Source: Thermoanaerobaculia bacterium (GTDB lineage Bacteria; Acidobacteriota; Thermoanaerobaculia; Multivoradales; UBA5704). From it: DNA of 64,000 nucleotides. The notes below the pieces were generated by a model. The model was not told where the DNA came from, searched no databases, and saw nothing but the letters and a program-made list of their open reading frames with translations. The stretch lies in assembly GCA_039918595.1 (NCBI GenBank), contig JBDSHF010000028.1, forward strand, positions 5,370 through 69,369, written 5' to 3'. Made by a program: the position numbers and the translations under genes. Positions 3,098 through 41,936 of this stretch are shown here, one piece after another; within the stretch, counting starts at the first letter, position 1; the number at the start of each line of letters is the position of its first letter.

Positions 3098-4426
3098 GTG
3101 TCAAACATAGAGCACGAGCACCTGACGAGGGAGATGTTGGAGAGGTACTTCAGCACGACGCCAATTGAAGAAGTCAGCCACATGCTTCTGCATCTCCTCG
3201 CCGTCTGTCCCGAATGCCGGGAAGCGGGCGGGAGCATTCTTGCTGCCTACGAAGCGGGGGCGATCGGGATCCAGTTCTCCTCGGTCGATGTCGATCTCTT
3301 CGCGTCCAGAAGAGCCGCACGAGACCTTTGGGAGACTATCAAGCCGCTTTCCTCTGAGGACCAGCTCCGCCTGATCCGGACTGCTGACGAGTATGTAAGC
3401 TGGGGTCTTACTGAACTCCTATCGAGGGAGAGCAAGAAAGCGGGACCGCGGGACCCGTCCCGGGCGGTCGACCTCGCTTTGCTCGCCGTCGAGGTGGCAA
3501 AGCGCCTGGGCGAATGGCAGCCCTGCGAGAAGTACTGGCTCTATGAACTGCGCGCCTATGCCTTCGCCCACCTTGCGTCTGCGTACCGCATCTCGGGCAA
3601 CATGCGCGAAGCGGAGAAGGCCCAGAAGCGAGCCGACGGATGGTGGAAGGAAGGGGCGGCGAGCATGGGCGACATTCTGGGCTACGAGCCCGAGATCCTC
3701 TCCCTCAAGGCGTCTCTCCGGAAAGACCAGCGCCGCTTCGATGATGCGCTCGTGCTCCTGGACGAGGTTGTCGGGATCTACCTTGCCGGAGACCCCGAGA
3801 CCCAAGACCTGCACATGGCGGGGAGCACGTTCGTCCTCAAGGCGAAGACTTTCGAGGAAATGGGAAACCTCGAAGAGGCGCTTGCCTTCCTGCGAGAAGC
3901 TTCACCCTTGATTGACCCCGAGCGCGAGCCGCGACTCCTCCTCTGCGTGCAGCACAACCTCCTCGACTACCTCTCAAATCTTGGGCGCCCCGAGGACGCG
4001 AGAGCGATGCTTCCCAAGGTCTGGAAGCTCTCCCGGGAACTTGGAAACGAACTCGACATGGTCAGGCTTACCTGGACCGAGGGACTCATTCTAGCCGCGC
4101 TCAACGAGACTCTTCCGGCGGCAAAGCTTCTTCTCTCCGCCCGTGCCGAGTTCATCTCCCGAAACATGGGCTATGACGCTGCTCTCGTTTCTCTCAACCT
4201 TGCTCTCATCTACGCCAAAGAAGGCCGCGTCGCAGCGATCGCGGACCTCGCCCGGGAGATGGTCCCCATCTTCGACGCCCAGGATGTCCACCGCGAAGCG
4301 CTCGCCGCTCTCGCGGTCTTCCATCGAGCAGCGCTCCATGAGCACGCGACGGCCGAGCTCGTCGGGAAAGTCGCCCGCTATCTCGAAACGGCGAGAGGAA
4401 ATCCGGGGTTGAAGTTCGAGGAGTAG
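3098..4426 (+). CDS. ZAS-domain (HxxxCxxC) anti-sigma-like protein with a C-terminal TPR-like domain; island paralog of the chromosomal family at 37.4-43.2 kb.
   Basis: GTG start with RBS aaggaggg. N-terminal HLLAVCPECREAG ZAS motif. Conserved LIDPEREPRLLL...HN and the C-terminal IFDAQDVHREALAAL block are shared with the ORFs at 37440, 40508 and 41937. Confidence 0.8.
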   Translation: MSNIEHEHLTREMLERYFSTTPIEEVSHMLLHLLAVCPECREAGGSILAAYEAGAIGIQFSSVDVDLFASRRAARDLWETIKPLSSEDQLRLIRTADEYVSWGLTELLSRESKKAGPRDPSRAVDLALLAVEVAKRLGEWQPCEKYWLYELRAYAFAHLASAYRISGNMREAEKAQKRADGWWKEGAASMGDILGYEPEILSLKASLRKDQRRFDDALVLLDEVVGIYLAGDPETQDLHMAGSTFVLKAKTFEEMGNLEEALAFLREASPLIDPEREPRLLLCVQHNLLDYLSNLGRPEDARAMLPKVWKLSRELGNELDMVRLTWTEGLILAALNETLPAAKLLLSARAEFISRNMGYDAALVSLNLALIYAKEGRVAAIADLAREMVPIFDAQDVHREALAALAVFHRAALHEHATAELVGKVARYLETARGNPGLKFEE

Positions 4427-5069: not shown

Positions 5070-5296
5070 GAAACCTCTTCAAAAACGGAGTGTTTAGAGC
5101 TTCTTGCATCGGGGAGGCGGGGGCGATCCAGAGGGGCCATCCCCTCGCGGTTCACCGAGGCTCAGAGCGCCTTCTTCCGCTGTAGCGCAGATACGAGTCG
5201 AGAAGGAAAAGTCGTTTCCTGAAAGTCTCATTGCGTGCCGCAGAGTAGCAAAAATTACCGTTGCAAGGAAAGTCGAGATCGAGTAGAGTCGCGTCT

Positions 5297-5650
5297 ATGA
5301 GTGCCACTCCGCTTACGGACGCCCTTCTCCCGGACCTGGGACTGGCTTTTCGTTTCCTGCGGGAGCAACGACGAATGCAGCAAGCCGAACTCGCCCGGCG
5401 GGCGCATATAGGGAAGTCGCAGGTCTCCCTCTACGAGAACGGAAAGCAGGCGCCGAACTTGGAGACGATGCTCCGCCTTCTCGCCGCTCTCGAAGCGGAC
5501 TTCCATGACCTTCACAACGCCATCAAGATTGCCGGAGGGAAGCTCGATCAAGTGTGCTCCGGCATGCCGAATCGGGACGAGCAGGCGGCGGCTGAAAAGA
5601 TCGCCCAGGGCCTCGCGCTTCTCCTTCAGCTCCCCCGCAAATCGAACTAG
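5297..5650 (+). CDS. XRE-family HTH transcriptional regulator.
   Basis: LGLAFRFLREQRRMQQAELARRAHIGKSQVSLYENGKQAPNLETMLRLLAAL HTH_XRE motif. The ORF track starts it at a TTG at 5261; an ATG at 5297 is preferred here. Confidence 0.7.
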   Translation: MSATPLTDALLPDLGLAFRFLREQRRMQQAELARRAHIGKSQVSLYENGKQAPNLETMLRLLAALEADFHDLHNAIKIAGGKLDQVCSGMPNRDEQAAAEKIAQGLALLLQLPRKSN

Positions 5651-5655
5651 CCGCT

Positions 5656-6033
5656 TCACGACAAACGCTCCACGGTCGAGAGGATCGTCTCAAGGAACTC
5701 CACGACGGCACTTCTGTGCCGAGGAAGGAGCGCCTGGAGGCGGAGCAGGGACCCGACGAGTTCCGTGTTCACGGAATCTCGCGCAGGCTCGCCGATGAGG
5801 CTCCCGAGAGTAATTCCAAATGCAAGCGAGAGCTGGTAGAGGGTATAGGTTCGAGGGAGCATGAGACCGGCCTCGTACCGCTCGACATAAGCGCGAGGAA
5901 GCCGGAGAACTGTCGCAAGATCCGCCTCGGTCCACCCTCGCTCAAGACGGAAGCTCCTGATTTTCGATCCGATGAGCGCGGCGAGATCGCGCCGCTTTCG
6001 AGGTGGAGGTATTTCTCGCATGCCCGAGATCAT
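5656..6033 (-). CDS. XRE-family HTH transcriptional regulator.
   Basis: IRSFRLERGWTEADLATVLRLPRAYVERYEAGLMLPRTYTLYQLSLAFGITLGSL. Convergent with the gene at 5297..5650. Confidence 0.7.
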   Translation of the reverse strand: MISGMREIPPPRKRRDLAALIGSKIRSFRLERGWTEADLATVLRLPRAYVERYEAGLMLPRTYTLYQLSLAFGITLGSLIGEPARDSVNTELVGSLLRLQALLPRHRSAVVEFLETILSTVERLS

Positions 6034-6561: not shown

Positions 6562-7590
6562 GTGCGAGAATACGACGCACCAGGGGGCATAGTGACGAAG
6601 GACTCTGACGAGCTTCAAGACATCGATCTTCTCCTAGAGGAGAGCCGGGCGCATCGCTTCAGCGATCCCGAGAGGGTCGTCTATCTCGCCGAGCTAGCGC
6701 GTGCGGCAGCCGACCGGCTTCAAGTCTCCGTTCACGGGCGCGCCGCGGTGGCTGACACGCGGGCAAAGGTCTGGACGGAACTGGCAAACGCCTATCGCCT
6801 GTCAGACGAGCTTGATCGGGCTGAAGAAGCGCTCGGCCGGGCAGTGCGTCACTTCGAGGAAGGCAGCCGGCACCCCGATCTTCTCGCTCGTATCGTCGAC
6901 CGCTTCGCTACGCTCCTTTGCTACCGCCGCCGTTTCGATGAGGCCCTCGCCCTGCTTGATCGCCTCGCATCCTTCTACCTCGCGAGAGGAGATCGCCATC
7001 TCGCCGGCAGGACCCTCGTCACCCGTGGTCTCTATACAGAGAACGCGGGCGAAGCTCTGCGGGCAATCGAATTCACCCGCCGGGGCCTTGAGCTTATCGA
7101 CCCGGCCCGAGATCCCCACCTTCTCCTCGCGGGGGTGCATAACCTCCTCTGGTGTGCAAGCGCCCTCGGGCGGTACGCCCTGATCGAGCGCCTAGTGCCC
7201 CGGGTTCGCTTCCTCTACGGAGACGACCGGCTGAACGTACTTCGCCTTGAGTGGGTGGAGGCGCGGGCAGCCTTCGGACTCGGTAGAGGAGAGGAGGCGG
7301 AACGGCTTTATGAGAAGGTCCGGGCCGGCTTTGCCGATGCCGGGCTCATCTTTCCTACCAGCCTCGTCTCTCTAGAGCTGGCTCTTGTCTGGTTGTCACG
7401 GGGGCGGACAAGTGAGGTCGCCCTGCTTGCGGGCGAGCTTGCGACCGCCTTCCAGGGACTGAAAGTCGGACGGGAGGTCATCGTATCGCTCCTCCTCCTT
7501 CGGCGGGCAATAGAAGAGGGGCGTGCCCTTGACGAGCTGGAGGGTAGGATTCGGTCTCTCGCGATCTCGATCCGCTCTCTGGAACGGTAG
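6562..7590 (+). CDS. TPR-like domain protein; paralog of the ZAS-TPR family but lacking the N-terminal ZAS domain.
   Basis: LIDPARDPHLLLAGVHNLL and the C-terminal ...GREVIVSLLLLRRAIEEG block align to the ORFs at 3098, 37440 and 40508. GTG start with a weak RBS. Confidence 0.7.
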   Translation: MREYDAPGGIVTKDSDELQDIDLLLEESRAHRFSDPERVVYLAELARAAADRLQVSVHGRAAVADTRAKVWTELANAYRLSDELDRAEEALGRAVRHFEEGSRHPDLLARIVDRFATLLCYRRRFDEALALLDRLASFYLARGDRHLAGRTLVTRGLYTENAGEALRAIEFTRRGLELIDPARDPHLLLAGVHNLLWCASALGRYALIERLVPRVRFLYGDDRLNVLRLEWVEARAAFGLGRGEEAERLYEKVRAGFADAGLIFPTSLVSLELALVWLSRGRTSEVALLAGELATAFQGLKVGREVIVSLLLLRRAIEEGRALDELEGRIRSLAISIRSLER

Positions 7591-7594
7591 CGCC

Positions 7595-7984
7595 CTACTC
7601 CTTACGAGGAGTGGGCGAACCCTTCTTGCTCGCTCGAATTGTCTTATGCACTGTCTCCTCTATCCGCCGGTCAAGCTCCTCTTCGCTCATGGCGGGAGGC
7701 AGGAGGATCGGGTCAGGAGCGTGCCCTTGCGAGAGTTCCTTCATGAGCCGGTCTGACAGCGGTATCTCTTTGTAGACAAGCCTGAAAAATACAAGGGGCT
7801 CCACTCTCAGCACCTGGAGGACTTCCAGGAGCTGGCGGAGCTTGATCTCCCATTGCCCCTTGAGGAGCTTGGTGAGGGAACTCTTGGCCCATCCCACACT
7901 GCGCTCAATCTCTCTCTTCGACGTCCCGGAACGGCTGATGAGTTCCTGGAGGACATCGATGTACCGGCGTATTTCCTCGTCCAT
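7595..7984 (-). CDS. HTH (XRE-like) DNA-binding protein.
   Basis: SKREIERSVGWAKSSLTKLLKGQWEIKLRQLLEVLQVL helix-turn-helix pattern. Divergent from the gene at 8249. Confidence 0.55.
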   Translation of the reverse strand: MDEEIRRYIDVLQELISRSGTSKREIERSVGWAKSSLTKLLKGQWEIKLRQLLEVLQVLRVEPLVFFRLVYKEIPLSDRLMKELSQGHAPDPILLPPAMSEEELDRRIEETVHKTIRASKKGSPTPRKE

Positions 7985-8248: not shown

Positions 8249-8671
8249 ATGGACATGTTCCGGAACACGGGCTTAGGTCTACGCATTCTCCGAGAGTGGC
8301 GGGGAAAGAGCATCAGGGCGCTTGCCGCCGAGGCGGGAATCGGAAAGAGCCAGCTCTCGAAGTATGAGAATGGGAGGGAGCTTCCCAAACTTGACTCCCT
8401 ACAAAAGATATTACGGGCGCTCTCTGTCGGTTCCGTCGATTTCTTCTCCCTGACTACGCTTCTCGACAGGAAGCTCGAAAGCCTCTCGAATCCGGAGAGG
8501 ACTGACGATCTTCTTACGCTTCAATCGTTCGGCCTATTTACCCCTGAGATCACGGCAGCCTTCGAGAAGATCATGAGCGCCGTCCTGGAGGCTCACCACC
8601 TGGTTGTTCGTGAACTCGCCTTGAAAGTCACAGAACTAAAGACCCGAACAGTGAGAGAGCCCCATGACTAA
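8249..8671 (+). CDS. XRE-family HTH transcriptional regulator.
   Basis: LRILREWRGKSIRALAAEAGIGKSQLSKYENGRELPKLDSLQKILRAL. Confidence 0.7.
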   Translation: MDMFRNTGLGLRILREWRGKSIRALAAEAGIGKSQLSKYENGRELPKLDSLQKILRALSVGSVDFFSLTTLLDRKLESLSNPERTDDLLTLQSFGLFTPEITAAFEKIMSAVLEAHHLVVRELALKVTELKTRTVREPHD

Positions 8672-10074: not shown

Positions 10075-10123
10075 CCAAAAAAAGCTCCCGATTCAGGATC
10101 GAGAGCTAAGAAAGGTGCAGTGA

Positions 10124-10294
10124 TTAGGTAAGCTGTGGTTCTTTCACGGTGAGCGTTAGTTTCCCATCCGTCACGGTGATATCAACGAGGCTTCCCTCGT
10201 CGAAACCTGCGCGCTCAAGCCACTTTCCGCGCAGACGGATCATAGGAACGGTGACGTTCCCTCGAAAGGTGTAGCTGACCGTCACCTTTCGCAT
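10124..10294 (-). CDS. SymE/AbrB-fold (swapped-hairpin) mini-protein, 56 aa. Not in the ORF track.
   Basis: Manual translation: MRKVTVSYTFRGNVTVPMIRLRGKWLERAGFDEGSLVDITVTDGKLTLTVKEPQLT. The LRGKWLExAGFxxG...V....G.L.L pattern is typical of the SymE toxin and SpoVT/AbrB family. It lies 4 nt downstream of the preceding gene. Confidence 0.5.
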   Translation of the reverse strand: MRKVTVSYTFRGNVTVPMIRLRGKWLERAGFDEGSLVDITVTDGKLTLTVKEPQLT

Positions 10295-10297
10295 CAG

Positions 10298-10657
10298 TCA
10301 CTCCTCGCGAGCTACACCCCGAAGCAACCCCATCTCCATCAGGATCTCCGAGAGGAGAGCCATGGCGTCGTCAAGGTCGGCGGGGTCTTGCAGGTCAGCG
10401 CTCCAGGCGCGAACCGTTCGTAGGGCGGCATCCGAGAGCGTCACACTCTGTCTGGTGATCGTGACGGGCTCGCTCCCTGCCTCCGCAGAGATGATGGTTG
10501 CCTGGGCGGTGACGTGAATCTCCCGAAGGTACTCCGGAAGGTCATCGGTTTTTTCGGTGAGAAGGAGCAGCTCTCCCAGAGCGAATCCCGCCGAAGAGGC
10601 GTAGCTTGAGAGAGCGAGGGCTGAGCGGTCGGGTCGGGCGGGTCGTGTCTCGTCCAT
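10298..10657 (-). CDS. Hypothetical protein (119 aa); start trimmed from the 173-aa ORF in the track.
   Basis: Its ATG overlaps the stop of the upstream gene (TGATG), which indicates translational coupling. No recognisable domain. Confidence 0.45.
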   Translation of the reverse strand: MDETRPARPDRSALALSSYASSAGFALGELLLLTEKTDDLPEYLREIHVTAQATIISAEAGSEPVTITRQSVTLSDAALRTVRAWSADLQDPADLDDAMALLSEILMEMGLLRGVAREE

Positions 10658-10941
10658 CAGTAGTCCTCCGGCAGGAACAGACAGGTTACGGAGCGGTCGG
10701 ATTCGGTCGCGACCAGGAGCTTGGCGCCTTGCGAGGTGCGGTACGAGGAGATGAGGCGATCCCCGATGCCGAGGGCGAGCATGTTCGCCGCCGTATCGAC
10801 CGAGGAGATCTCGCCCCAATCTCCGGTGACGTGCCGCCCGAGGTAGAGGTGCGGGTCTTCGCCGCTCTCTTCGAGGACTGCGAGCGCGCCGGGGGTTGCC
10901 ACGACGCGGCCGAGATCGAAGAGCATCCTTGTCAGAGTCAT
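10657..10941 (-). CDS. Hypothetical protein (94 aa); start trimmed to MTLTRMLFDLG.
   Basis: RBS aaggaggg 4 nt upstream of the ATG at 10941. The longer ORF in the track has a poor Arg/Pro-rich N-terminus. Confidence 0.45.
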   Translation of the reverse strand: MTLTRMLFDLGRVVATPGALAVLEESGEDPHLYLGRHVTGDWGEISSVDTAANMLALGIGDRLISSYRTSQGAKLLVATESDRSVTCLFLPEDY

Positions 10942-10976
10942 GGAGCCCTCCTTGGAGTGTCGGTTGGGATGTGGAG

Positions 10977-11804
10977 CTATGCGACTGCTTCTACGGGAGA
11001 GAGCTCGCTCGCGAGGTGCTCCGCCTCGTCGAGGAGTTGCGAAACGCAGCGGCACGTCCGCTCGAGGAGGTCGGTACAGACGGAGAGCACCTTGCGGTCG
11101 TGCTTCTCGCAGTAGCCTTCGATGTAGCGGTACGTGCCGCCCGGATCGCTCTTGTCGGAGTGCCCGAGGCACTCCAGGAGGATTGACGCCCCGAGCTGCG
11201 CCACCACTTCGGCTTCAATTCCTCGGCCGGCGTGCGTCCCGAGCCGATGGTCGGCTGCGTGGACCAGCTCGTGCGCCCAGACCAGGAGATTCTCAGTTGC
11301 AAGGCCGATCCCCAGGCCAGGGGCGTAGTACCCAAGGGCTGAAGGGTTGTCCTTGATGAAATAGGTCCCCACTGACAAACCCCAGGATCGGGCAACGGCA
11401 ATGAGGGGCAAGGCATCGATGAATTCCGGCTCGTCCTCTGCGCCAGGGAGAGGATCACCATACGTCTGGAGATAGCCGAAGACAGCGATGGGTTGGTAGC
11501 CGACCAGCACCATATGGTTCTCCTCGCTCCCGGCATCCTCGTCCTTCTTGAGCTTGGGTGCGAGGATGTGGAAGGAGCGCTCGCCTTTCTTCACATGTCG
11601 GCCGATTGCCTCCCATTGGCGAAACCCCGCCGCGTAGACGTGGCCCCGGAGAATTCCGACGGTTCGGTTTGTCCAGGTCCAGCGCTTCGAGGGAACGTCA
11701 ATGTTTCTCCGGATGAACACCTGGGCGAGCGCGGCCGGCAGTGTCCCGGTCTGGAAGGCGGAGAGGAGGTCGTTTGCGATGGCTTGGATTTTCTCGTTCA
11801 CCAT
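10977..11804 (-). CDS. ardC: ArdC-like anti-restriction protein (DUF1738 ssDNA-binding N-terminus plus a zincin HExxH metallopeptidase domain).
   Basis: The N-terminal ...RQWEAIGRHVKKGERSF pattern matches DUF1738. HELVHA is a HExxH motif. The family is typical of conjugative elements. Confidence 0.6.
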   Translation of the reverse strand: MVNEKIQAIANDLLSAFQTGTLPAALAQVFIRRNIDVPSKRWTWTNRTVGILRGHVYAAGFRQWEAIGRHVKKGERSFHILAPKLKKDEDAGSEENHMVLVGYQPIAVFGYLQTYGDPLPGAEDEPEFIDALPLIAVARSWGLSVGTYFIKDNPSALGYYAPGLGIGLATENLLVWAHELVHAADHRLGTHAGRGIEAEVVAQLGASILLECLGHSDKSDPGGTYRYIEGYCEKHDRKVLSVCTDLLERTCRCVSQLLDEAEHLASELSPVEAVA

Positions 11805-11813
11805 AGCTGCCTC

Positions 11814-12062
11814 CTAGATCACGCCCGCGAGAATGAGGGCGCTTGCGACCGTTCCGACGTTGCACTCCTCGCACCATCCCGCGTCCTGGTCCGGCTCATA
11901 CTCAGCGGTGTAGTCGCAGCCATTATTCGTACAGATGCCGGGTACAGCACTATCCATGGCCGCGTTCTCCAGGAGTTCATCCGCGCTCATGCCCCAGGCA
12001 TCCGCCAGCTCTTCGAGCTTGCTCTTGCGAACGGCTCGATCAATTGTCCGTCGCTGGTACAT
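11814..12062 (-). CDS. Small zinc-ribbon protein (82 aa).
   Basis: ICTNNGCDY...GWCEECNVG cysteine pairs. Lies in the operon between the sigma-like gene and the ArdC-like gene. Confidence 0.45.
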   Translation of the reverse strand: MYQRRTIDRAVRKSKLEELADAWGMSADELLENAAMDSAVPGICTNNGCDYTAEYEPDQDAGWCEECNVGTVASALILAGVI

Positions 12063-12065
12063 TCG

Positions 12066-12500
12066 TTATCTCCTTTCCTGTTGGGGTGAAGCCGTCGTTC
12101 TTGCCGCTCTGGTGTATTGCCGCATAAGCCGCTCGACTCGCTTGCGAAGGACACGGTCCCTCGCACAGAGCAGGTACGCCTCCTCTCGTTCGACGAGGAT
12201 ATCCTCGGGCGTGCGGGAAGGCTGCCAGAGCGCCTGTACGATGTCGAAGGTCTCTCCGAGATGCTGTGATCGTTTTTGCGCACCCTGCCTCCGCAGAAGA
12301 TCAATAGCAGCATTGACTGCGGCCCGTCGCACATACGGCAGGCAGTCGAGCATGCGGTCCGCGCGCGATCTCCAAAGATTCAGGAATGTGTCCTGTATCG
12401 CGTCCTCTACGCACTCCAGAGGAAGTTGCATGCCGAAGCGAGCGACTGTCGCAGCTACGCTTCCCCGCACGGCATTAAGGTGGTCAGGTGAGAGCGCCAT
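12066..12500 (-). CDS. Sigma-70/ECF region-2-like protein without an obvious region 4 (truncated sigma homolog).
   Basis: PLECVEDAIQDTFLNLWRS and AVNAAIDLLRRQ align with region 2 of the chromosomal ECF sigmas (36896, 38951, 39981). No C-terminal HTH is recognisable. Start trimmed to MALSPDHL. Confidence 0.5.
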   Translation of the reverse strand: MALSPDHLNAVRGSVAATVARFGMQLPLECVEDAIQDTFLNLWRSRADRMLDCLPYVRRAAVNAAIDLLRRQGAQKRSQHLGETFDIVQALWQPSRTPEDILVEREEAYLLCARDRVLRKRVERLMRQYTRAARTTASPQQERR

Positions 12501-12662
12501 AGTGCAGCGCTTTGCCTTCGGACGGATACACGTCCGCCTTCGAGTCTTCATGGACTCCTCCTTTCGGTGGTTGCAGCGATTAAAGGAACTTATCTGGATG
12601 TCAGACTAGAGGAGGGAGTGCGGCCCACGAAGACGCACGAACCTGCCGGAGAGGTAACGCAC

Positions 12663-12689
12663 AACACCCCGCTTCAATAGCGGGGTGTT
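12663..12689 (-). terminator. Stem-loop aacaccccgc/gcggggtgtt after recombinase 1; the U-tract is weak.
   Basis: 10-bp perfect stem with a 7-nt loop, between the recombinase stop (12710) and the next operon. Confidence 0.4.
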
Positions 12690-12709
12690 AGCAGCAGGAG
12701 AGTGAACGA

Positions 12710-14326
12710 CTAATTTTCTCGCATCGTCCAAGGTACACTGACAGGTACGTTGGGATGCTCTGAAAGCCAATCGTAGATCTCTGCGATTGCGTGTCTCGAT
12801 CCAAGATGAGGACTGTTTGCCGCTTCCGGCAGATCTGTACCGCTTCGAGGGGTGTACCGAGTACGTCCACCTAGTTCTGTTTCGTCGCCTTTCATAAGCA
12901 GGCGAAAAGGAAACGACAGCTCAATAACAACGTTTTCTCGGCTAACGCACCGGTTCGAGGTGAGCATTTCGAGGAATTCACGTTTTTCCTCGTCATTTCC
13001 CATTTCATGGCTCAACGAGGCCGTAGAAGCAAGTTCGAGGATTTCCCGCAGCCGGGTAGCGGTTTCGTCTTGATTCGTTCCGCCTGAAAGCTTTTCCTCA
13101 AGCTCGCGCTCTTCCATGAGAAGCCGCTTCTTACGGGGCTCGAAGGTTTCCTTGTCGATACTTCCCTCAAGGAAGGCATCTACAAGCCTGTCATGGCGAG
13201 TCTGAAGCGCCGCGAGCTGGAGCTTCCATGTCTCCTGTATACGCTTGGTATTCTCTCCGCAGGTTTCAAGGAAGGCTGTCGCTTCCATCTCCAGGGCCGT
13301 GCGTTCCGAGTCGGACAGCTTGAGCGTTGCATACGCTCCCGTGACCGCGGCATCAAGCACTTCTTCCCGCACGCCGGTCAGAGGACAGGTCTTCGAGTGG
13401 CAGCGGTAGTAGACATGACTTTTTTGCAGCTCGGCGATGAGGGAATACCCGCACTCGGCGCACTTGAACATGCGACGGTAGCGGAAGAGATTGCGTTTGG
13501 CCTGCTTCTGGGTCTTGCCGGAGAGAACCGCCTGCACGCGGTCGAAGAGATGCTTTCCGATGAGCGGCTCGTGCACTCCCTTGTATACCTCCCTTCGCTT
13601 GTGAGCAATGAGCCCTATATAGAAGGGATTGTTGAGCATGGAAGAGAGACCGTTTTTGGTGACACGCCCGCCCTGTCGGTTGCGAAGCCCCATCCGTCGA
13701 AGCTCGGCACACAATGTCTCAAGGCTATGGGCGCCGGTTGCGTATAGCTCGAAGGCTCTGCGGACCATGGGTCCAGTGACCGGGTCAATCGTTTTGACCT
13801 TGCCACGCTGGCCGTTGTTGACGTAGCCCAAGGGCGCTCCCCACGGGAGGAGCCCCTGTTTCAGGCGCCCATCTATACCCTTCCGTACCTCCTCTTTAAG
13901 GTTGCGGATGTAGTCGGTCGCAAAGACCGCCTGCACGTCGGCCAAGAGCCGCTTGCCCCGGGTACTGAGGTCGAGATTGTCGCTTGCGAAGCGGACACCG
14001 AACCCCTCGTCGGCAAGGTCGTTAATGTTGGCCCAATCGTGGTAGTTGCGGCTGGAGCGGTCCACCTTGTGCACGATGAAGCCGTCGGCTTCACCCATCC
14101 GCAGGCGCTTCGCCATGGCGGTGAAAATGGGTCGGCCCTGCTTCGCTGCGGTCTCTACCTCGCGGAACCACTCGACGATGGTCAGCCCTTCACGTTCGGC
14201 ATAGCGGGCGATAACGCTCCGCTGTTCGGTGAAGGAGGCGCCTTCGCGTGAGTCCTTGCTTCCGGGATCTCTTTCGTCGTCTTGGCTTGGATCCGAGACA
14301 CGGATGTAGGCGAAGAATCGCTTCAT
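12710..14326 (-). CDS. Large serine recombinase (resolvase catalytic domain, recombinase domain and zinc ribbon).
   Basis: FAYIRVSDPSQ catalytic serine motif. Length is 538 aa. C-terminal CxxC...C motifs are present. Divergent from the replication/cargo operon. Confidence 0.9.
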   Translation of the reverse strand: MKRFFAYIRVSDPSQDDERDPGSKDSREGASFTEQRSVIARYAEREGLTIVEWFREVETAAKQGRPIFTAMAKRLRMGEADGFIVHKVDRSSRNYHDWANINDLADEGFGVRFASDNLDLSTRGKRLLADVQAVFATDYIRNLKEEVRKGIDGRLKQGLLPWGAPLGYVNNGQRGKVKTIDPVTGPMVRRAFELYATGAHSLETLCAELRRMGLRNRQGGRVTKNGLSSMLNNPFYIGLIAHKRREVYKGVHEPLIGKHLFDRVQAVLSGKTQKQAKRNLFRYRRMFKCAECGYSLIAELQKSHVYYRCHSKTCPLTGVREEVLDAAVTGAYATLKLSDSERTALEMEATAFLETCGENTKRIQETWKLQLAALQTRHDRLVDAFLEGSIDKETFEPRKKRLLMEERELEEKLSGGTNQDETATRLREILELASTASLSHEMGNDEEKREFLEMLTSNRCVSRENVVIELSFPFRLLMKGDETELGGRTRYTPRSGTDLPEAANSPHLGSRHAIAEIYDWLSEHPNVPVSVPWTMREN

Positions 14327-14668
14327 ACGTCCGTGTCTTCTATTTGTCTTGTAAAGGTTCGACCGGAGTCCATGCTACCGGGGTAATTCGGCGCTGTCAA
14401 AGCGGCGAGGCGCTCGCGCTCGGCCGGATCGGAAGCAATGCGAGCGTGCAGGCGCAGGATAAAAGACAGGTAGCGGCGGAGCGCATGGCGCGCCTCTTCC
14501 GCTTCCTCCGGCGCAAGGTCGGGAAAGAGAGTTTCAGGTGTGGTTTGCGATTGCATCCGTCGAGCGTACAGGCGCGGTTCGGAGTGGAGAAGTCGCGCTT
14601 CTGTGCCGGAGTCGGCAGCATGGTGCGTATTTGAGGCGGGATATAAGGGCAGTACGCTCTCCCACATG

Positions 14669-16652: not shown

Positions 16653-16748
16653 AACGTCCCCAACGTCCTGATATGCCCTTGGAAAACCTGCCGACCCCGG
16701 CAGGTTATTGCGTCTTGTATTTGACATACTGTCAAGTATATTGCTGCG

Positions 16749-17108
16749 GTGGCTATGACATTCATACCATTACAGAACTATCTCCGTACCTACCGCAGGC
16801 GCAGTTTTCTCTCGCAGGACGAGGTTGCTTTCCTTTTGGGCGCAAAGACCGGGACACGGGTCACCCGCCATGAGGGAGCTAACCGGATTCCGAAGATGGA
16901 GACGGCGCTTGGCTACGAAGTGCTGTTCGGCGTTCCCTTGCGCGAACTGTTCGCAAGCGAGGCGCACAAGGTCGAAACCATTATCAGACAGCGTGTGCCC
17001 GAGCTGATCCGGGAGGTCGAGGAGAAGGGCGAAAGCAGAGAGAAGCTTTCCTTTCTCCGAAGCCTTTCCGAACGGCTCGCAAAGCATCATGAGAACACTT
17101 GCAATTGA
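16749..17108 (+). CDS. XRE-family HTH regulator.
   Basis: RRSFLSQDEVAFLLGAKTGTRVTRHEGANRIPKMETALGYEVLFGVPLRELF. Confidence 0.6.
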   Translation: MAMTFIPLQNYLRTYRRRSFLSQDEVAFLLGAKTGTRVTRHEGANRIPKMETALGYEVLFGVPLRELFASEAHKVETIIRQRVPELIREVEEKGESREKLSFLRSLSERLAKHHENTCN

Positions 17109-17571
17109 CCCTACTACGTCCGGCTTCGGCTTCGTGGTCCTCGAAGGAAGCGAGCGCCTGGTTGATTGGGGCCTCGGGCGACTGGAAAAGCCCGAGGATA
17201 CCCTCTTCCTGAAGCGGATCGAAAAGCTTCTTGACCGCGCAGCACCGCAGCTCCTTGTCCTTGAGGACATGGAGGACTCGCGCCGCGGCAAGAGGGCTAT
17301 CGCCTGGACGCGGCTTGCACAGATGTGCGCTGCGAAGCGCGGCATCAGGGTGGAGAGAATCGGCCGCGCGGAAGTGTCAGAGCGCTTTGCTTCCTCGGGA
17401 AAGTCGAGATGGGAGGTCGGCCTTGCGATCTCGCGCTTCTTCCCGGAGCTCGCCCCGAGCCTTCCGAAGAAACGGCGTATCTGGGAGAGCGAGGACCGGC
17501 GCATGACGATCTTCACGGCCGCCTCCTTTGCCTTGACCTTCCTGCGTCGAGCGGATCGAAGTAGAGAGTAG
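17089..17571 (+). CDS. RuvC/RNase-H-like fold protein (160 aa). Possible Holliday-junction-resolvase-like protein with partly degenerate catalytic residues.
   Basis: N-terminal LAIDPTTSGFGFVVLEG resembles the RuvC iLGIDPGsr.tGyav motif. LLVLEDMED supplies the second acidic residue. The C-terminal DxxD region is not evident. The start overlaps the upstream HTH gene by 20 nt. Confidence 0.45.
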   Translation: MRTLAIDPTTSGFGFVVLEGSERLVDWGLGRLEKPEDTLFLKRIEKLLDRAAPQLLVLEDMEDSRRGKRAIAWTRLAQMCAAKRGIRVERIGRAEVSERFASSGKSRWEVGLAISRFFPELAPSLPKKRRIWESEDRRMTIFTAASFALTFLRRADRSRE

Positions 17572-18919: not shown

Positions 18920-19879
18920 GCCATGGCTAAACAAATCGCGGCCCGCTCTCAGGTGACGAGTCCTCACAAGCGTGATTGGCCCTTGGCTATTATTGTATTG
19001 TTCTTTGTCTTTATTTCAGGTTTCACTTTGTCAGCTCAGCCCGCAAGGAAGACTCTGTACACGAGCCAAGATGCCAAAATCGACGAACTGAAGTGTTCAT
19101 CCAAAGACAAGATTTTTCTACCTATTCTTCCGAAAAAGTCAATTTACGGAAAGGTGATCGAACCTGAAGATGTCCTACGCTCGGCGCCTCCTTCGAATCT
19201 TGCAAGTGATGCGGATGAATCTAGGAATTTAGTAGGATATTCGGGACCCTATTACAACGTGGAGGAGCTGACTGGAAATGTCGCCGTGCTCGAAAGGACT
19301 TTATATAACTGGCCGACTAATAATTGGCATGTAACAGGGTTGCTTCGAAATCAAACATGCATGGACATTCGAGTCTCGTCCATAACCGCCCACCTTATCG
19401 GGCCAAGCGGTAAGGAAGTGCGCATTGAAACTGCTACCGTTCCTATTAGTGATTTGAGACCGGGTGAGCCGGCCCCTTTTGATCTAAGTTCTCCAATCCC
19501 AAGAGAGAACGTTGAGCGCGTGGAATGGCAGATTGGATACGCAACAACGACAGAATCGCCCGTTCGGACTTTCTCATTTCTGGTATATCAGTCACGCCAG
19601 ATCACAAGTTCCTCGTACCTGCTTTTCGGCAGTATCCAGAACCTAGGGAGTTCCAGTGCGAGGGGAACTCACATTGTGGCGGCCTGGCTAGATAGTAGCG
19701 GCAGGGTTCGCTATGTAGCATCACCTCTGATTCAACTGGCGACCGGTCCATTGAGTCGAAGAAATAAAATAAATTTGGTGGGCAACGATTTTGAAGATTT
19801 CGTCTTTTCCGCTAATGATCCGCTGCTAGCATCAACGTTGAGTCAGGCAAACGTCGCAATCTGGGGTGTTGCAAATTGA
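18920..19879 (+). CDS. Membrane-anchored (N-terminal TM) periplasmic protein, low GC.
   Basis: WPLAIIVLFFVFISGFTL TM anchor. Its stop overlaps the start of the giant ORF (TTGA). Confidence 0.55.
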   Translation, partial: AMAKQIAARSQVTSPHKRDWPLAIIVLFFVFISGFTLSAQPARKTLYTSQDAKIDELKCSSKDKIFLPILPKKSIYGKVIEPEDVLRSAPPSNLASDADESRNLVGYSGPYYNVEELTGNVAVLERTLYNWPTNNWHVTGLLRNQTCMDIRVSSITAHLIGPSGKEVRIETATVPISDLRPGEPAPFDLSSPIPRENVERVEWQIGYATTTESPVRTFSFLVYQSRQITSSSYLLFGSIQNLGSSSARGTHIVAAWLDSSGRVRYVASPLIQLATGPLSRRNKINLVGNDFEDFVFSANDPLLASTLSQANVAIWGVAN

Positions 19880-22800
19880 AATATTCAGCCTGGGCCTTAT
19901 CAGTGATCGTCCTAATTCTCTCGGGAGAAGGACAAGCGGCAGCGCATGACTTTGGCAGTATACCCTATGACGATGTGGTCTACGCGGCCCAAGTCTATAA
20001 TCAATGCAGGGATACTCTCCCGACTGACAAATTGGTTGCTTACATGCTCGCGCCGACATGGCGAGAATTAACCAATGGCAATACCAATCTAACGCCATCC
20101 CCTATGACATTGGGCAGAGGGGATAACGATTTGGATCTATATCCAGATGGTCAGTCCGGCGCAACTGCTCCGCACCGTCGCGCTTTTTGGCACCCGGGTA
20201 TTGGTCTCTGGCAACTCGATGATATCGGTCTTGGAAAAGACATTAGCACAGAGAAATTCAACTCAAGAGACGCGGCTCAGGTTGCAGCTACCATAATCTC
20301 AACTCGATATTGTAAATCGCCAACAGCTGCGTATATATATGGAGGTATCTGGATTGCTTGTGGGGCGGATGGGAGTCTTTGTCAGGATATTGTCAACCAA
20401 CTCTACAACCCTAATGGCCCTCCAGCGTATACAGTTGGTCGCGACAATAGTGTTGGTCGGTACGGTGGTTCGCAGTTGCATACGTGTAAACTAGCGGGCG
20501 ACACTAGGTATTTCGATTGCCTATATGTTAAGCCTGCCAACCCAGATGGAACACGAGCCAACGCCGAGGGTACTATATCAAGTTGGATTTACCAGCCATT
20601 AGAGGGTCTTTATCCCCCCAATACACCGTCTCCGCTAACAATGCCATTTTATGTCTATCGAGAGGATGCAACTGGAGGGGGATTCGAGTGGCGATATTGG
20701 CTAGCTGCTGATACAGGCTTCGGAAAAGATTATGCTGCTAGACGAACCTATGGCGCCAACTCTCGGGCAGGTCTCCATTGGGTTTCAGATGCGTCAACCA
20801 GCTTAGCTCTCTGTGATGTTACCCTTACACGCGGTGCCTGTGGAGGTATTCCCCAGGCACCTTCGATATCCAACATAGCACAGCTATCGTACGACGGGTC
20901 GCCACTTTCAGTCGGCGCTATTACACAAGCTGGAACCGTTATACTCCGAGGTACACTTGCTGGTTCTCAGGGTCAACAAGTACGAATTGAGCTAGAGGTT
21001 CGGAGAATCTCTGACCCGTTCTTAGGTGAACCGAATTACCTTGGAAACTACGTCACCAGTGGGAGCGTAAGCAAGTGTGTCACGGGACTGCAAGACGCCA
21101 AATATCATTGGCAGGCACGAGTGAGGAGCGATAGTGGACAGTTCAGTCAATGGCTTCAGTTCGGGGGAAACTCTGAAGCCAGTCCTGATTTCGAGGTACA
21201 GGCTAATAGATGTGCTATTTGCACTGCGTCTGGCGCATCTGCTGTGGTCACAAAGTATGGCCGTATTGGAATATCCTGTGGCGTACCCCTGGCTGTAGAA
21301 CTTGCAGCGTCTGTCAACAATGGTATTACCCTGCTTAATGGTGTAAGTCTGACGGCATCGGTGAGTGGTTCGGAAACCGGCACTATAAATTACACGTTTT
21401 ATTGTAATCGTCCCGATGGAGGAATTGATGTTAGATCTGGATGGATTGCCAAGTACGATGGGATTTCGGCGAATCCGAAAACAGCATATGACGTATGTGA
21501 CTATGTTGGGCCGGGTATTTATACTGCAAAGGTGATCGCTGAGCGTGGATCAAGCGCAGCTGAATCACGGACACTCATCACCGTTTCGGCACCTTCAACG
21601 CAAACTCCTTCGGTTACAACGAGTGGCTCGGCAAATGTGACCCAAAGTAGTGCGACTCTCAGTTTATCTGTTAATCCAAACGGGTCTGATACTTCAGCCT
21701 GGTTTGATTGGGGGACGAGCACCTCCTTCTGCTGTAACACGAGTCAGCAGACAGTCGCGGCTAGTTCGGGAGCGTCACTGCTTAGTATGACCGTAGGCGC
21801 CCTTCAATGCGACACAACCTACTACTTCCGAGCCCACGCACAAAGTGTAGGCGGAGAAGCCACAGGAAGCACCTTGTCATTCCGAACGGGTGCATGTGGC
21901 AACGGCCCCCAAACCGTTCAACTTGTGCCTGATCCAGGCTTCGAGCAAGGAAACAATGCGTGGTGGGTAGCGAGCCCAGCGTTCTATATCGATCATGCTC
22001 CCACCTTCCCGAATCCGCGCAATGGAAGTTACTACGCTTTCCTTTCCACGTCCAACGGCTCGGCGGGCAACAATTTGCAGGGCGGCGTGATATCGCCCCA
22101 AGTCACCATTCCTTCAAACGCAAGCGGAGCTGAACTGCGCTTCTGGTATAGCGTTTCGACACAGGAGACGAGTACATCAATCTTTGATACCCTCAAGGCT
22201 TACCTAGTTAAGCCGGGGAATCAAGCGACACTCTTTGCAACCATCTCAAACTTGGACAATTCTGGCACAACGTATAGAGAGAAGGTTGTCGGCATTCCCT
22301 CCTCATTTTTCGGCGGCCCGGTGCAGATCTTTTTCTCTGGCGCAACAGACGGTAGCTTGCCTACCGTCTTCCGCGTAGACGATGTGACGCTTTCTGCCTT
22401 CATCCCTGCGACGGCCGGTTCGCCTGTCGTTAGCACGGGGTCTGTTGACCAAATTACCTCGTCTAGCGGACGGCTCAGCATGACTGTCAACCCCAACGGT
22501 GCCGACACTCAGGTGTGGTTTGATATAGAAACGAACAATCCGCCGAACTCTGAGACAGAGCACGTAGCTATAGGAACCGGGCAGCAGGCCGAGGGCGTTA
22601 GCATTAGTGTATTCGGCTTGCGATGCGACACGACCTACTACTATCGGGCTGATGCCGTCAATTCGTACGGATCACAGCTAGGCTCTGTGAGTTCTTTTAG
22701 AACCAGTACTTGTCCCGTTCAAGCCCCCTCAGTATCAACCACTGTTGCTGACAGTATAACGTCCACCTCTGCGCGTTTGGTTGGGAGCGTCAATCCAAAC

Positions 22801-28650: not shown

Positions 28651-28791
28651 GTAGGTACTCTCCGGCGCCGCATCCCGCCACAGGGGCACCTTGTGGCGTC
28701 TTTCCGGCTACCATCGGCGCGCGTACGGTGGGCGAAGAGTGTTCTTCACACCTTCAACCCTCCGCGAGAGCGGATCTCTTTGGAGACAAGG

Positions 28792-41887: not shown

Positions 41888-41936
41888 GCTGCCCGTCCGG
41901 CAGCGCGTGTCGTTTTGTTGCGGCCGTTCTGCTAAA

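What the first reader, a model, noticed from the sequence alone, without database searches (positions are those of the whole stretch)
10124..12500. Six-gene minus-strand operon: truncated sigma-like protein, Zn-ribbon, ArdC-like zincin, two coupled small ORFs and a SymE/AbrB-like mini-ORF
The operon reads sigma-like protein (region 2 only, homologous to the chromosomal ECF sigmas), an 82-aa zinc ribbon, an ArdC-like anti-restriction protein (DUF1738 plus HExxH), and 94-aa and 119-aa ORFs with overlapping stop/start (TGATG). It ends with a 56-aa SymE/AbrB-fold ORF (LRGKWLERAGF) that is missing from the ORF track. This looks like an early-expressed establishment/anti-defence cassette. A sigma fragment that cannot bind DNA (no region 4) could titrate the host ZAS-TPR anti-sigma proteins, linking the cassette to the paralogous signalling modules on the same element.
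Basis: partly seen in the sequence, partly recalled or inferred. Interest (0 to 1): 0.55.

Follow-up and report, generated by a model that had tools for sequence, protein, structure and literature searches.

The report
Accessory anti-restriction operon of an acidobacterial ICE
This is a real six-gene operon on an integrated, probably conjugative, element of an uncultured soil Acidobacterium; it combines an ArdC-type anti-restriction protein and several small proteins typical of mobile elements with an unusual sigma-factor fragment whose job is unknown but is probably not the anti-sigma decoy first proposed.

Summary
Six tightly packed minus-strand genes run from 12551 to 10124, each with its own ribosome-binding site, ending in an intrinsic terminator at 10107-10083. 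They encode a 161-aa sigma-like protein with region 2 only, an 82-aa four-Cys zinc ribbon, a distant but genuine ArdC homologue, overlapping 94-aa and 119-aa ORFs, and a 56-aa SymE/AbrB-family protein.

All six are under purifying selection. The whole order recurs downstream of a large serine recombinase in related Thermoanaerobaculia elements that carry TrwB/TraG-like ATPases.

The cassette is mosaic. Sister elements keep the same promoter region and the zinc-ribbon/ArdC genes but lack the sigma-like gene. The 94-aa and 119-aa ORFs are fused elsewhere, and the SymE-like gene can stand alone.

The sigma-like protein belongs to a conserved ~160-aa family, so it is not a pseudogene. It has no region 4 by profile or by fold, and it is always next to the zinc-ribbon gene. 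It shares only generic sigma-2 similarity with the two chromosomal ECF sigmas.

"Establishment/anti-defence cassette" is plausible. The anti-sigma titration idea has no specific support. I file this as a new variant of a known kind, of moderate interest.

The parts
12552..12709 (-). Conserved regulatory region between the recombinase and the first cassette gene. It contains a perfect 10-bp hairpin (12689..12663), the motif CGGCAGGTTCGTGCGTCTTC (12647..12629), a -10-like TAGTCT (12608..12603) 21 nt further on, and the ribosome-binding site GGAGGAG.
   Evidence: The hairpin, motif and CTAGTCTGAC box are identical or nearly so in the window, L001, L004/5, L010 and L107, although the L010 and L107 recombinases are only 47-48% identical. 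The region is also present ahead of zn82 in sigma-less elements L027/L028/L032. No Rfam match.
12066..12551 (-). Sigma-like protein, 161 aa. It comprises a basic N-terminal tail, an ECF-type sigma-2 domain and two C-terminal helices. It has no region 4. pI is 10.7.
   Evidence: Pfam Sigma70_r2 only. 64 homologues of about 160 aa. The AF2 model matches sigmaE region 2 only. hhalign against full ECFs aligns sigma-2 only. dN/dS 0.22-0.30.
11814..12062 (-). zn82: an acidic 82-aa protein with two N-terminal helices, a four-Cys zinc ribbon and a conserved C-terminal SALILAG(I/L)I tail.
   Evidence: Invariant C44, C49, C64, C67 and an EPDQ motif. AF2 pLDDT 89. No significant PDB fold match. Adjacent to the sigma-like gene in all 18 acidobacterial loci fetched through the sigma-like protein. 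Also found without the sigma-like gene.
10977..11804 (-). ArdC-family protein, 275 aa: an ArdcN-type ssDNA-binding domain plus a zincin domain (HELVH ... EAEVVAQLG).
   Evidence: The family profile hits ArdC 6sna/6i89 at E = 2e-9. H178, E179, H182 and E199 are (nearly) invariant.
10657..10941 (-). p94: an acidic 94-aa protein of a family borne on many plasmids, with no Pfam or NCBIfam model.
   Evidence: 173 plasmid records hold relatives, some mislabelled 'type I restriction endonuclease subunit M'. Fused to p119 in L004/L005. Duplicated in L010 and L034.
10298..10657 (-). p119: an acidic 119-aa protein whose start overlaps the p94 stop (TGATG).
   Evidence: It forms one 214-aa ORF with p94 in L004/L005. 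No family or PDB hit.
10124..10294 (-). SymE/AbrB-family mini-protein, 56 aa, basic.
   Evidence: PF08845 E = 3e-13. MazE_antitoxin E = 7e-4. The NCBIfam SymE equivalog scores 46 bits against a cutoff of 132. 52 homologues of 52-81 aa. Last gene of the same operon in L001, L004/5, L019 and L107; stand-alone in L108.
10075..10107 (-). Intrinsic terminator that closes the operon.
   Evidence: Conserved in L001 and L004.
12710..14326 (-). Large serine recombinase, 538 aa, immediately upstream on the same strand. A sigma-70-like promoter match lies at 14400..14372.
   Evidence: Resolvase + Recombinase + Zn_ribbon_recom domains. Promoter scan. The same rec-then-cassette order occurs in L001, L004, L010, L107, L027 and L032.
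16699..16717 (+). Second copy of the motif (GGCAGGTTATTGCGTCTTG), 20 nt upstream of TATATT. It lies ahead of the plus-strand operon HTH119 (16749-17108), a 160-aa ORF, the TrwB-like ATPase and a 335-aa ORF.
   Evidence: The same site is conserved in L001, L004, L010 and L019.

Best explanation
**What it is.** The region is a mosaic accessory (establishment/anti-restriction type) operon. It lies directly downstream of a large serine recombinase gene in an integrated, probably conjugative, element of a Thermoanaerobaculia (Acidobacteriota) genome.

**Shown**
- There are six co-directional, translationally coupled genes under purifying selection, closed by a terminator.
- They follow a roughly 150-nt conserved leader. 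Its upstream motif (CGGCAGGTTnnTGCGTCTT, 20-21 nt before a TAnnnT box) is repeated in front of the element's TrwB-ATPase (transfer) operon.
- One gene is a true ArdC relative, with an ssDNA-binding domain and an HExxH-E zincin domain.
- Three genes encode small acidic proteins (zn82, p94, p119). Relatives of zn82 and p94 sit in plasmid and phage accessory regions.
- Gene content varies between sister elements.

**Inferred**
- The two operons are co-regulated.
- The cassette is expressed when the element is activated or newly arrives.
- ArdC and the small acidic proteins blunt restriction and other defences in the new host.

**The sigma-like protein.** It is an optional first gene, inserted between the conserved promoter and zn82.
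- It keeps the ECF sigma-2 signature (EDxxQxxFLxLW ... PYVRRxAxNxxIDxLRR) but has no sigma-4.
- My preferred reading (probability about 0.3) is that it binds the RNA polymerase core through sigma-2 and acts as a minimal, gp55-like specificity or appropriation factor. Its invariant neighbour zn82 may be a partner.
- It is not needed for the cassette promoter itself.

**The terminal SymE/AbrB mini-protein.**
- I read it as a nucleic-acid-binding regulator that shuts the operon off again, by Aca-like negative feedback (about 0.5).
- The alternative is a type I toxin that stabilises the element (about 0.35).
For: - **Anatomy:**
- **Selection:**
- **Identical seven-gene order** (rec-sig-zn82-ArdC-p94-p119-SymE) in L001 and L107; variants in L004/5, L010, L019 and L007.
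- **Element context:** a TrwB-like ATPase, a 1002-aa TraG-like protein and a second serine recombinase in the window. Replic_Relax genes in sister loci. Host assignment from a 100%-identical protein of a Thermoanaerobaculia MAG and from 11 GTDB loci, all Acidobacteriota.
- **ArdC homology:**. ArdC function is described in PMC7213743.
- **zn82 relatives:** next to DUF6878, DUF736, PAPS-reductase and RadC genes on Roseobacter conjugative plasmids, and in phages.
- **p94:** found on 173 plasmids.
- **Mosaicism and sigma-less sisters with the same leader:**. This matches the variable, multi-operon establishment regulons described for pLS20-type plasmids (PMC8708921).
- **Shared cis motif before two operons in five elements:**
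- **Sigma-2 only:**
- **Precedents for sigma-2-only factors with a small partner:** T4 gp55/gp33 (PMC7892883), MtvS1/MtvS2 (PMC13627669), SigO-RsoA (cited in PMC7826278). Tn916 Orf7 (sigma-like) and Orf8 lie next to xis-int (PMC5812530, PMC12229494).
- **Charges:** the sigma-like protein is +14 and zn82 is -9.
- **SymE-like family:** confined to these elements, 52-81 aa. It sits at the operon end, like the repressors of acr/establishment operons (PMC8708921).
Against: - No function was tested. "Anti-defence" rests on ArdC homology and on guilt by association.
- oriT, the relaxase nick site and the transferred strand are unknown, so "leading region" and "early" are unproven. No canonical VirB4-type T4SS gene was recognised, so even ssDNA conjugation is an inference.
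- PADLOC, PHROGs and PDB give nothing for zn82, p94 and p119.
- Against a gp55-like role:
  - Sister elements lacking the sigma-like gene use the same leader.
  - zn82 is widespread without any sigma-like gene.
  - zn82 shows no sigma-4 or gp33-like fold.
  - No promoter class specific to sigma-bearing elements was found.
- Against SymE as a repressor:
  - No operator was identified.
  - The shared motif is also present in L010, which has no SymE-like gene in the 20 kb fetched.
  - The family's one characterised member is toxic (PMC1891008).
Confidence: 0.55

Rival explanations
1. The sigma-2-only protein is a decoy (sigma mimic) that titrates host ZAS-like TPR anti-sigma proteins. This would release host ECF sigmas, or couple the cassette to the TPR modules on the same island.
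For: - The host carries two ECF sigmas, at 38951-39478 and 39981-40511. The second overlaps the start of the first of two tandem TPR genes (40448-41887 and 41907-43247). These TPR proteins have an N-terminal H-x4-C-x2-C motif. Paralogous TPR proteins (31-36% identity) lie at 3098-4426 and 6562-7590.
- Sigma mimicry is a known principle (PhyR/NepR; from my own knowledge).
- An optional gene in an accessory cassette fits a host-directed effector.
- Anti-sigmas bind the same sigma-2 surface as the core enzyme, so the conserved region 2.1/2.2 does not argue against this model.
Against: - The protein shares only a 16-aa BLAST segment with the local ECFs (E = 0.012). The family HMM hits no other window ORF.
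- Anti-sigmas are usually specific for their cognate sigma and normally clamp both sigma-2 and sigma-4 (established knowledge).
- The left-flank TPR genes pair with HTH_3 genes, not with sigmas. They are absent from the sister elements that carry the sigma-like gene.
- The only constant partner is zn82, which is not TPR- or ZAS-like.
Confidence: 0.1
2. The sigma-2-only protein is an inhibitor rather than an activator. It would occupy the beta-prime clamp helices and so compete with host sigmas. Because it has no sigma-4 or sigma-3.2 it cannot initiate, so it would transiently dampen host (for example stress- or defence-related) transcription after entry.
For: - The sigma-2 core-binding signature is conserved, and everything needed for -35 recognition is lost.
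- Its optional status and first position in an accessory cassette are compatible.
- It is strongly basic, with a basic N-terminal tail.
Against: - General competition with sigma factors would be costly for an element that resides in its host.
- The long conserved C-terminal helices (invariant TPE..L.EREEA ... RV) suggest a specific additional interface.
- The strict adjacency to zn82 is not explained.
Confidence: 0.15
3. The 56-aa SymE-like ORF is a type I toxin, as in E. coli symE/SymR. It would act as an addiction module that stabilises the integrated element, kept silent by an undetected antisense RNA.
For: - Strong PF08845 match.
- In L108 the gene stands alone behind two terminator-like hairpins and a leader of about 360 nt.
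- Synonymous divergence of symE against L004 is low: pS 0.21 against 0.43-0.57 for the other genes, which hints at nucleotide-level constraint.
- SymE biology is described in PMC1891008.
Against: - It is half the length of E. coli SymE and scores far below the NCBIfam equivalog cutoff (46 against 132 bits).
- It has a good ribosome-binding site and is translationally coupled at the end of the operon, so it is made whenever the cassette is made.
- No sigma-70-type antisense promoter was detected.
- The pS anomaly is absent against L001.
- The family is restricted to this lineage of elements.
Confidence: 0.35

Closest known systems
ArdC of IncW plasmid R388 (PDB 6i89/6sna) and plasmid establishment/anti-restriction operons
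   Same: The 275-aa protein aligns to ArdC across the second half of the ssDNA-binding domain and the whole metalloprotease domain, including HExxH and the downstream metal-binding Glu. As with plasmid establishment genes, it sits among small accessory genes in an operon of variable content (PMC7213743, PMC8708921).
   Different: The family is very distant: a single sequence barely passes the PF08401 threshold, and only a profile reaches ArdC. It lies on an acidobacterial integrative element next to a serine recombinase. Anti-restriction activity and expression in the recipient are untested.
Split or minimal sigma systems: T4 gp55/gp33, Francisella MtvS1/MtvS2, B. subtilis SigO-RsoA
   Same: A small protein made only of a sigma-2-homology domain, encoded on a mobile element, always next to a small partner gene (PMC7892883, PMC13627669).
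   Different: There is no evidence that zn82 binds the beta-flap or mimics sigma-4. zn82 occurs widely without the sigma-like gene. The cassette promoter is the same in sigma-less elements. No sliding-clamp motif or late-promoter analogue was identified.
Tn916 orf7 (sigma-like) and orf8 (small HTH protein) regulatory module next to xis-int
   Same: A sigma-like gene and a small helix-containing gene next to the recombination genes of an ICE. In Tn916 they activate their own promoter and read through into the recombination and transfer genes (PMC5812530, PMC12229494).
   Different: No sequence comparison was made here, so this is an analogy only. The order relative to the recombinase is reversed. 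The acidobacterial sigma-like gene is dispensable in sister elements.
ECF (group 4) sigma factors
   Same: Sigma-2 sequence signature and fold. The best structural matches are E. coli sigmaE region 2.
   Different: It lacks sigma-4 altogether. It carries a basic N-terminal tail and a conserved C-terminal helical hairpin. It has no adjacent anti-sigma of a known type.
E. coli SymE/SymR type I toxin-antitoxin and AbrB/MazE-fold regulators
   Same: PF08845 domain (E = 3e-13), a weaker MazE_antitoxin match, and a basic small protein.
   Different: It is 56 aa against 113 aa. It scores below the SymE equivalog cutoff. It is the last gene of a polycistronic operon. No antisense RNA or LexA control is evident.
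PhyR-type sigma mimicry (anti-anti-sigma)
   Different: PhyR has both sigma-2-like and sigma-4-like parts plus a receiver domain (my own knowledge). Here there is only sigma-2, no receiver and no identified anti-sigma partner.

Membership tests
ECF sigma factor (group 4 sigma-70) | Sigma-2 domain (regions 2.1-2.4) | tested here: met
   PF04542 at 26 bits against a cutoff of 24. Foldseek top hits are sigmaE region 2, probability 1.0, 73-77 columns. hhalign probability 92.7% to the sigma-2 of four ECFs.
ECF sigma factor (group 4 sigma-70) | Sigma-4 domain (regions 4.1-4.2, HTH for the -35 element). ECF classification requires both sigma-2 and sigma-4 (PMC7826278). | tested here: not met
   No Sigma70_r4 or r4_2 hit at E <= 1. 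Nothing beyond sigma-2 aligns by hhalign or Foldseek. All 64 homologues are about 160 aa with PF04542 only. The two chromosomal ECFs of similar length do score r4.
Split/minimal sigma (gp55-gp33 type) | A sigma-2-homology-only protein that binds the beta-prime clamp helices | not testable with these tools
   The sigma-2-only architecture is met. The conserved acidic region 2.2 (E46, E49, D50) is compatible. Binding itself is not testable here.
Split/minimal sigma (gp55-gp33 type) | A dedicated co-factor that replaces sigma-4 at the beta-flap | tested here: inconclusive
   zn82 is adjacent in 18 of 18 acidobacterial loci fetched through the sigma-like protein. However, it has no sigma-4 or gp33-like fold match and is common without the sigma-like gene.
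ArdC anti-restriction family | N-terminal ArdcN (DUF1738) ssDNA-binding domain | tested here: met
   PF08401 at 23.5 bits against 22.6, a partial match. 33 of 39 family members hit PF08401. The profile aligns to ArdC from residue 74.
ArdC anti-restriction family | C-terminal zincin domain with HExxH plus a downstream Glu ligand | tested here: met
   HELVH at 178-182 and E199 are (nearly) invariant. They align to the ArdC HExxH and EE..AE segment at E = 2e-9. The fold itself was not modelled.
ArdC anti-restriction family | Anti-restriction activity against type I R-M systems in the recipient | not testable with these tools
   Experimental property (PMC7213743).
SymE/SymR type I toxin-antitoxin | SymE_toxin (AbrB-fold) domain | tested here: met
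   PF08845 E = 3e-13, 50 bits against a cutoff of 29, covering profile positions 2-54 of 54.
SymE/SymR type I toxin-antitoxin | Equivalence to E. coli SymE (full-length, about 113 aa) | tested here: not met
   NF010128 scores 46.4 bits against a cutoff of 132. The protein is 56 aa, and its 52 homologues are 52-81 aa.
SymE/SymR type I toxin-antitoxin | A cis-encoded antisense RNA over the 5' end, and SOS (LexA) control | tested here: inconclusive
   No sigma-70-type promoter on the opposite strand and no Rfam hit. Acidobacterial promoters and LexA boxes are not covered by these scans.
Plasmid/ICE leading-region anti-defence island | Location next to oriT on the first-transferred side; early, transient expression | not testable with these tools
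   oriT, the nick site and the transferred strand are unknown. Only gene content and mosaicism resemble such islands (PMC11541004 was seen by title and abstract only).
Zinc ribbon | Two CxxC-type knuckles on a small beta-sheet | tested here: met
   C-x4-C and C-x2-C are invariant in 38 sequences. The AF2 model has four strands, pLDDT 89.

The most novel reading that the evidence does not exclude
The 161-aa protein and zn82 could form a new kind of split sigma carried by acidobacterial conjugative elements. A sigma-2-only subunit recognises a -10-like element (sigma-2 reads the -10 element as single-stranded DNA). It might therefore, with the zinc-ribbon partner, let host RNA polymerase start transcription of incoming element genes without any -35 recognition, possibly directly on the transferred single strand alongside ssDNA-binding ArdC.
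Probability: 0.1. Interest if true: 0.75.

Novelty: new variant of a known kind. Interest (0 to 1): 0.4.

Why it matters
Mobile elements of Acidobacteriota are almost unstudied. This operon shows that they carry the same kind of mosaic ArdC-centred accessory cassette as plasmids of well-studied bacteria.

It also exposes three uncharacterised families linked to mobile elements (zn82, p94, p119) as candidates for anti-defence screens. zn82 alone has hundreds of relatives on plasmids, phages and ICEs.

The conserved family of sigma-2-only proteins, always next to zn82, is a compact and testable case for how truncated sigma factors are used by mobile DNA: as a minimal sigma, an RNA polymerase competitor, or an anti-sigma decoy.

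If the cassette is ordinary, the value is mainly in annotation. The sigma fragment should not be annotated as an ECF sigma factor, and the SymE-like mini-ORF should not be annotated as a proven toxin.

Tried and rejected
1. **Read-through fusion of the sigma-like and zn82 ORFs.** In the window and in L001 they are in the same frame (TAA-CGA-ATG). In L007 the zn82 ORF is in another frame, and in type B elements zn82 lies upstream of the sigma-like gene. zn82 also has its own ribosome-binding site. I treat the shared frame as coincidence.
2. **zn82 supplying region 4 in trans.** The N-terminal helix-turn-helix-like segment is acidic and weakly conserved. Foldseek found no sigma-4 match.
3. **Sigma-like gene as a decayed pseudogene.** Rejected: length is conserved across 64 homologues and dN/dS is 0.22-0.30.
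4. **Close paralogy to the chromosomal ECFs.** Rejected.
5. **ECF-style autoregulated promoter.** The same leader precedes zn82 in sigma-less elements, and no GGAAC/CGT-type motif is present.
6. **Conserved leader as a known RNA family.** No Rfam hit. The RNA fold z-score is -3.6, but the signal is dominated by one hairpin.
7. **Conserved leader as attP.** Unlikely, because it stays intact in integrated copies.
8. **Known-family searches for zn82, p94 and p119.** PADLOC, PHROGs, NCBIfam and PDB sequence searches gave nothing.
9. **The 248-aa minus-strand ORF at 16770-17516.** It is a spurious antisense ORF. It is frameshifted in L004, and gene callers choose the opposite strand.
10. **Exact-sequence look-up of the ArdC-like protein.** Found nothing.

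Full report

| Gene | Coordinates (minus strand) | Length |
|---|---|---|
| sigma-like | 12551..12066 | 161 aa |
| zn82 | 12062..11814 | 82 aa |
| ArdC-like | 11804..10977 | 275 aa |
| p94 | 10941..10657 | 94 aa |
| p119 | 10657..10298 | 119 aa |
| SymE-like | 10294..10124 | 56 aa |

- Gaps between genes are 3-35 nt or negative; p94 and p119 overlap in TGATG.
- Each start has a GGAG-type ribosome-binding site.
- A 10-bp stem followed by T7 at 10107..10083 closes the unit.
The ATG at 12551 has the strong ribosome-binding site, and its basic N-terminal peptide is conserved in homologues.
- Against two related elements every gene has dN/dS of 0.09-0.42, so all six, including the 56-aa ORF, are real coding genes.

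**The sigma-like protein.**
- It hits only Sigma70_r2.
- All 64 relatives found among 5.8 billion proteins are about 160 aa and carry PF04542 alone or no Pfam domain.
- The alignment shows the ECF sigma-2 signature (EDxxQxxFLxLW ... PYVRRxAxNxxIDxLRR), followed by an invariant TPE..L.EREEA ... RV helical segment.
- The AF2 model (pLDDT 78) matches sigmaE region 2 structures over 73-77 residues and nothing else.
- hhalign against four full-length ECFs aligns sigma-2 only.
- It is therefore a conserved sigma-2-only family, not a normal ECF sigma and not a pseudogene.

**zn82.** It has four invariant Cys and an EPDQxxGWC motif. Its confident model shows two helices, a zinc ribbon and a short C-terminal helix. 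It has no informative PDB match.

**The ArdC-like protein.** It belongs to a large family (2429 cluster representatives). The family profile hits R388 ArdC structures at E = 2e-9 through the HExxH/Glu metalloprotease domain.

**p94 and p119.** Neither matches any model library or solved structure.

**The SymE-like protein.** It matches SymE_toxin strongly (E = 3e-13) and MazE weakly. It scores far below the NCBIfam SymE equivalog cutoff.

**Context.**
- An identical 82-aa protein comes from a Thermoanaerobaculia MAG.
- All 11 GTDB loci encoding the sigma-like family are Acidobacteriota/Thermoanaerobaculia.
- The operon follows a 538-aa large serine recombinase (14326..12710).
- To the right lie, on the plus strand:
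  - two conserved unknown genes;
  - a weak-HTH 119-aa gene and a 160-aa gene;
  - a TrwB-like ATPase and a 335-aa ORF;
  - a 1637-aa surface-type protein and a 280-aa ORF;
  - a 1002-aa TraG-like protein and a second serine recombinase, ending at 30375.
- Sister loci add Replic_Relax genes.
- This is an integrative, probably conjugative, element of a poorly known type. No VirB4-like gene was recognised.

**Comparative anatomy.**
- The full order rec-sigma-zn82-ArdC-p94-p119-SymE recurs in L001 and L107.
- L004/L005 lack ArdC and carry p94 and p119 as a single 214-aa ORF, which argues that the two act together.
- L010 has two p94 copies and no SymE-like gene in the 20 kb fetched. L019 and L007 place ArdC before the sigma-like gene and have two zn82 copies.
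- From the sigma side, zn82 is adjacent in all 18 acidobacterial loci, upstream or downstream.
- From the zn82 side the link is not reciprocal:
  - 455 relatives exist in metagenomes.
  - Sister elements L027, L028 and L032 read rec-zn82-ArdC with no sigma-like gene.
  - L030, L034 and L053 combine zn82 with p94, ArdC or both without the sigma-like gene.
  - Relatives also sit among DUF6878, DUF736, PAPS-reductase and RadC genes on Roseobacter conjugative plasmids, in a Roseobacter phage and in uncultured phages.
  - One distant relative lies two genes after a 266-aa phage-type Sigma70_r2 protein.
- p94 relatives occur on 173 plasmids.
- The SymE-like family (52 proteins, 52-81 aa) is confined to this lineage of elements. 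In L108 it stands alone downstream of the recombinase.
- The cassette is thus mosaic. zn82 is its most constant member, and the sigma-like gene and SymE are optional.

**Regulatory region.**
- The roughly 150 nt between the recombinase stop and the first cassette gene is conserved. It holds a perfect hairpin, CGGCAGGTTCGTGCGTCTTC, and CTCTAGTCTGAC.
- The conservation extends to L010 and L107, whose recombinases are only 47-48% identical. The region is also present ahead of zn82 in sigma-less elements.
- A second copy of the motif, again 20-21 nt before a TAnnnT box, precedes the HTH119-160aa-TrwB operon in the window and in L001, L004, L010 and L019.
- I infer a shared promoter or operator that couples the cassette to the transfer genes.
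- Because the leader is the same with or without the sigma-like gene, that promoter does not depend on the sigma-like protein.

**Mechanism.**
- At operon level, the best-supported reading (0.55) is an accessory establishment/anti-restriction cassette. It rests on an ArdC homologue and three small acidic proteins (pI 4.1-4.6), expressed together with the transfer genes.
- For the sigma-like protein three readings remain open:
  - a minimal gp55-like sigma or appropriator of RNA polymerase, perhaps with zn82 (about 0.3);
  - a competitor for the core enzyme (about 0.15);
- The decoy has no specific support:
  - Similarity to the two chromosomal ECFs is limited to a 16-aa segment.
  - The TPR proteins on the left flank are paralogues of the chromosomal TPR proteins near those ECF sigmas, but they pair with HTH_3 genes.
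  - Those modules are absent from sister elements.
- For the SymE-like protein I lean towards an AbrB-fold regulator that closes the operon, by the logic of Aca or the p576 repressor (PMC8708921), rather than a type I toxin (PMC1891008). The evidence is thin either way.

**Comparison with what is known, and novelty.**
- ArdC-centred accessory operons, sigma-2-only factors (T4 gp55/gp33, MtvS1/2, SigO-RsoA), sigma-like regulators next to ICE recombination genes (Tn916 orf7/orf8) and SymE/AbrB proteins are all known kinds.
- What is new here is their combination on an acidobacterial element, and a conserved ECF-derived sigma-2-only family that always accompanies a zinc-ribbon protein.
- I rate it a new variant of a known kind, interest 0.4.

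**Limits.**
- No function was tested.
- The leading-region status, the element ends, the transferred strand and any protein-protein contact remain unknown.

Noticed in passing
window 12647-12629 (-) and 16699-16717 (+); the same two sites in L001, L004, L010 and L019: The motif CGGCAGGTTnnTGCGTCTT lies 20-21 nt upstream of a TAnnnT box in front of both the cassette and the TrwB/transfer operon. The second site also carries an AACCTGCC-N6-GGCAGGTT hairpin and a TTGAC-N7-GTCAA palindrome. It looks like a shared promoter or operator of the element.
   Followed up: partly
window 16749-17108 (+), 17089-17571 (+), against 16770-17516 (-): The 248-aa minus-strand ORF is probably spurious. It is frameshifted in L004, and gene callers choose the other strand in L001 and L004. 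The real genes are likely a 119-aa weak-HTH protein and a 160-aa protein on the plus strand, leading into the TrwB-like ATPase gene.
   Followed up: partly
L004 6357-7001 and L005 1599-2243: p94 and p119 are fused into one 214-aa ORF, which indicates that they act together. p94 is duplicated in L010 and in L034/L035.
   Followed up: partly
window 3098-4426, 6562-7590 (+) and 40448-41887, 41907-43247 (+): These four TPR proteins are paralogous (31-36% identity). The two chromosomal ones lie in tandem immediately downstream of the second ECF sigma gene (39981-40511), and the first ECF gene (38951-39478) lies about 500 nt upstream of that. They carry an N-terminal H-x4-C-x2-C motif. The two on the low-GC left flank sit among Xre-type HTH_3 genes (5261-5650, 5656-6033, 7595-7984, 8249-8671).
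   Followed up: partly
window 19876-24789 (+): A 1637-aa protein with MAM, Calx-beta, CBM96 and Ig-like domains lies inside the element in a local GC trough (0.51-0.53). It could be cargo or an adhesin used in mating.
   Followed up: no
window 25642-28650 (+) and 28693-30375 (+): A 1002-aa TraG/TrwB-like protein with a long N-terminal extension is followed by a second large serine recombinase. The same p280-TraG-recombinase module occurs in L002, L011, L013 and L014. The element therefore carries two TrwB-family ATPases, two serine recombinases and no recognisable VirB4.
   Followed up: partly
L002 1-1861; L003 1-1224; L007 1-193; L004 8383-9327: Sister elements, or their immediate flanks, carry defence genes: CBASS (SMODS + SAVED/E2), SIR2 and Abi_C.
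   Followed up: no
L010 9667-9742 (-), inside the 3' end of the recombinase gene; L019 6177-6195 (-): Further copies of the GGCAGGTT..CGGCTTC motif lie on the opposite strand within the recombinase coding region. In L010 they form two 57-bp direct repeats. Their meaning is unknown.
   Followed up: no
L024-L026 4903-6213: In a phage- or plasmid-like contig made of many small genes, a zn82 relative lies two genes after a 266-aa Sigma70_r2(+r3) protein. This is a second, independent co-occurrence of this zinc ribbon with a sigma-type gene.
   Followed up: partly
window 12689-12663 (-): A perfect 10-bp GC-rich hairpin (AACACCCCGC-N7-GCGGGGTGTT) lies right after the recombinase stop codon, with no T-run. 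The stems are invariant and the loops vary across five elements. In the sigma-less elements the stem is shifted by one base. It could be a terminator/attenuator or a protein-binding site.
   Followed up: partly
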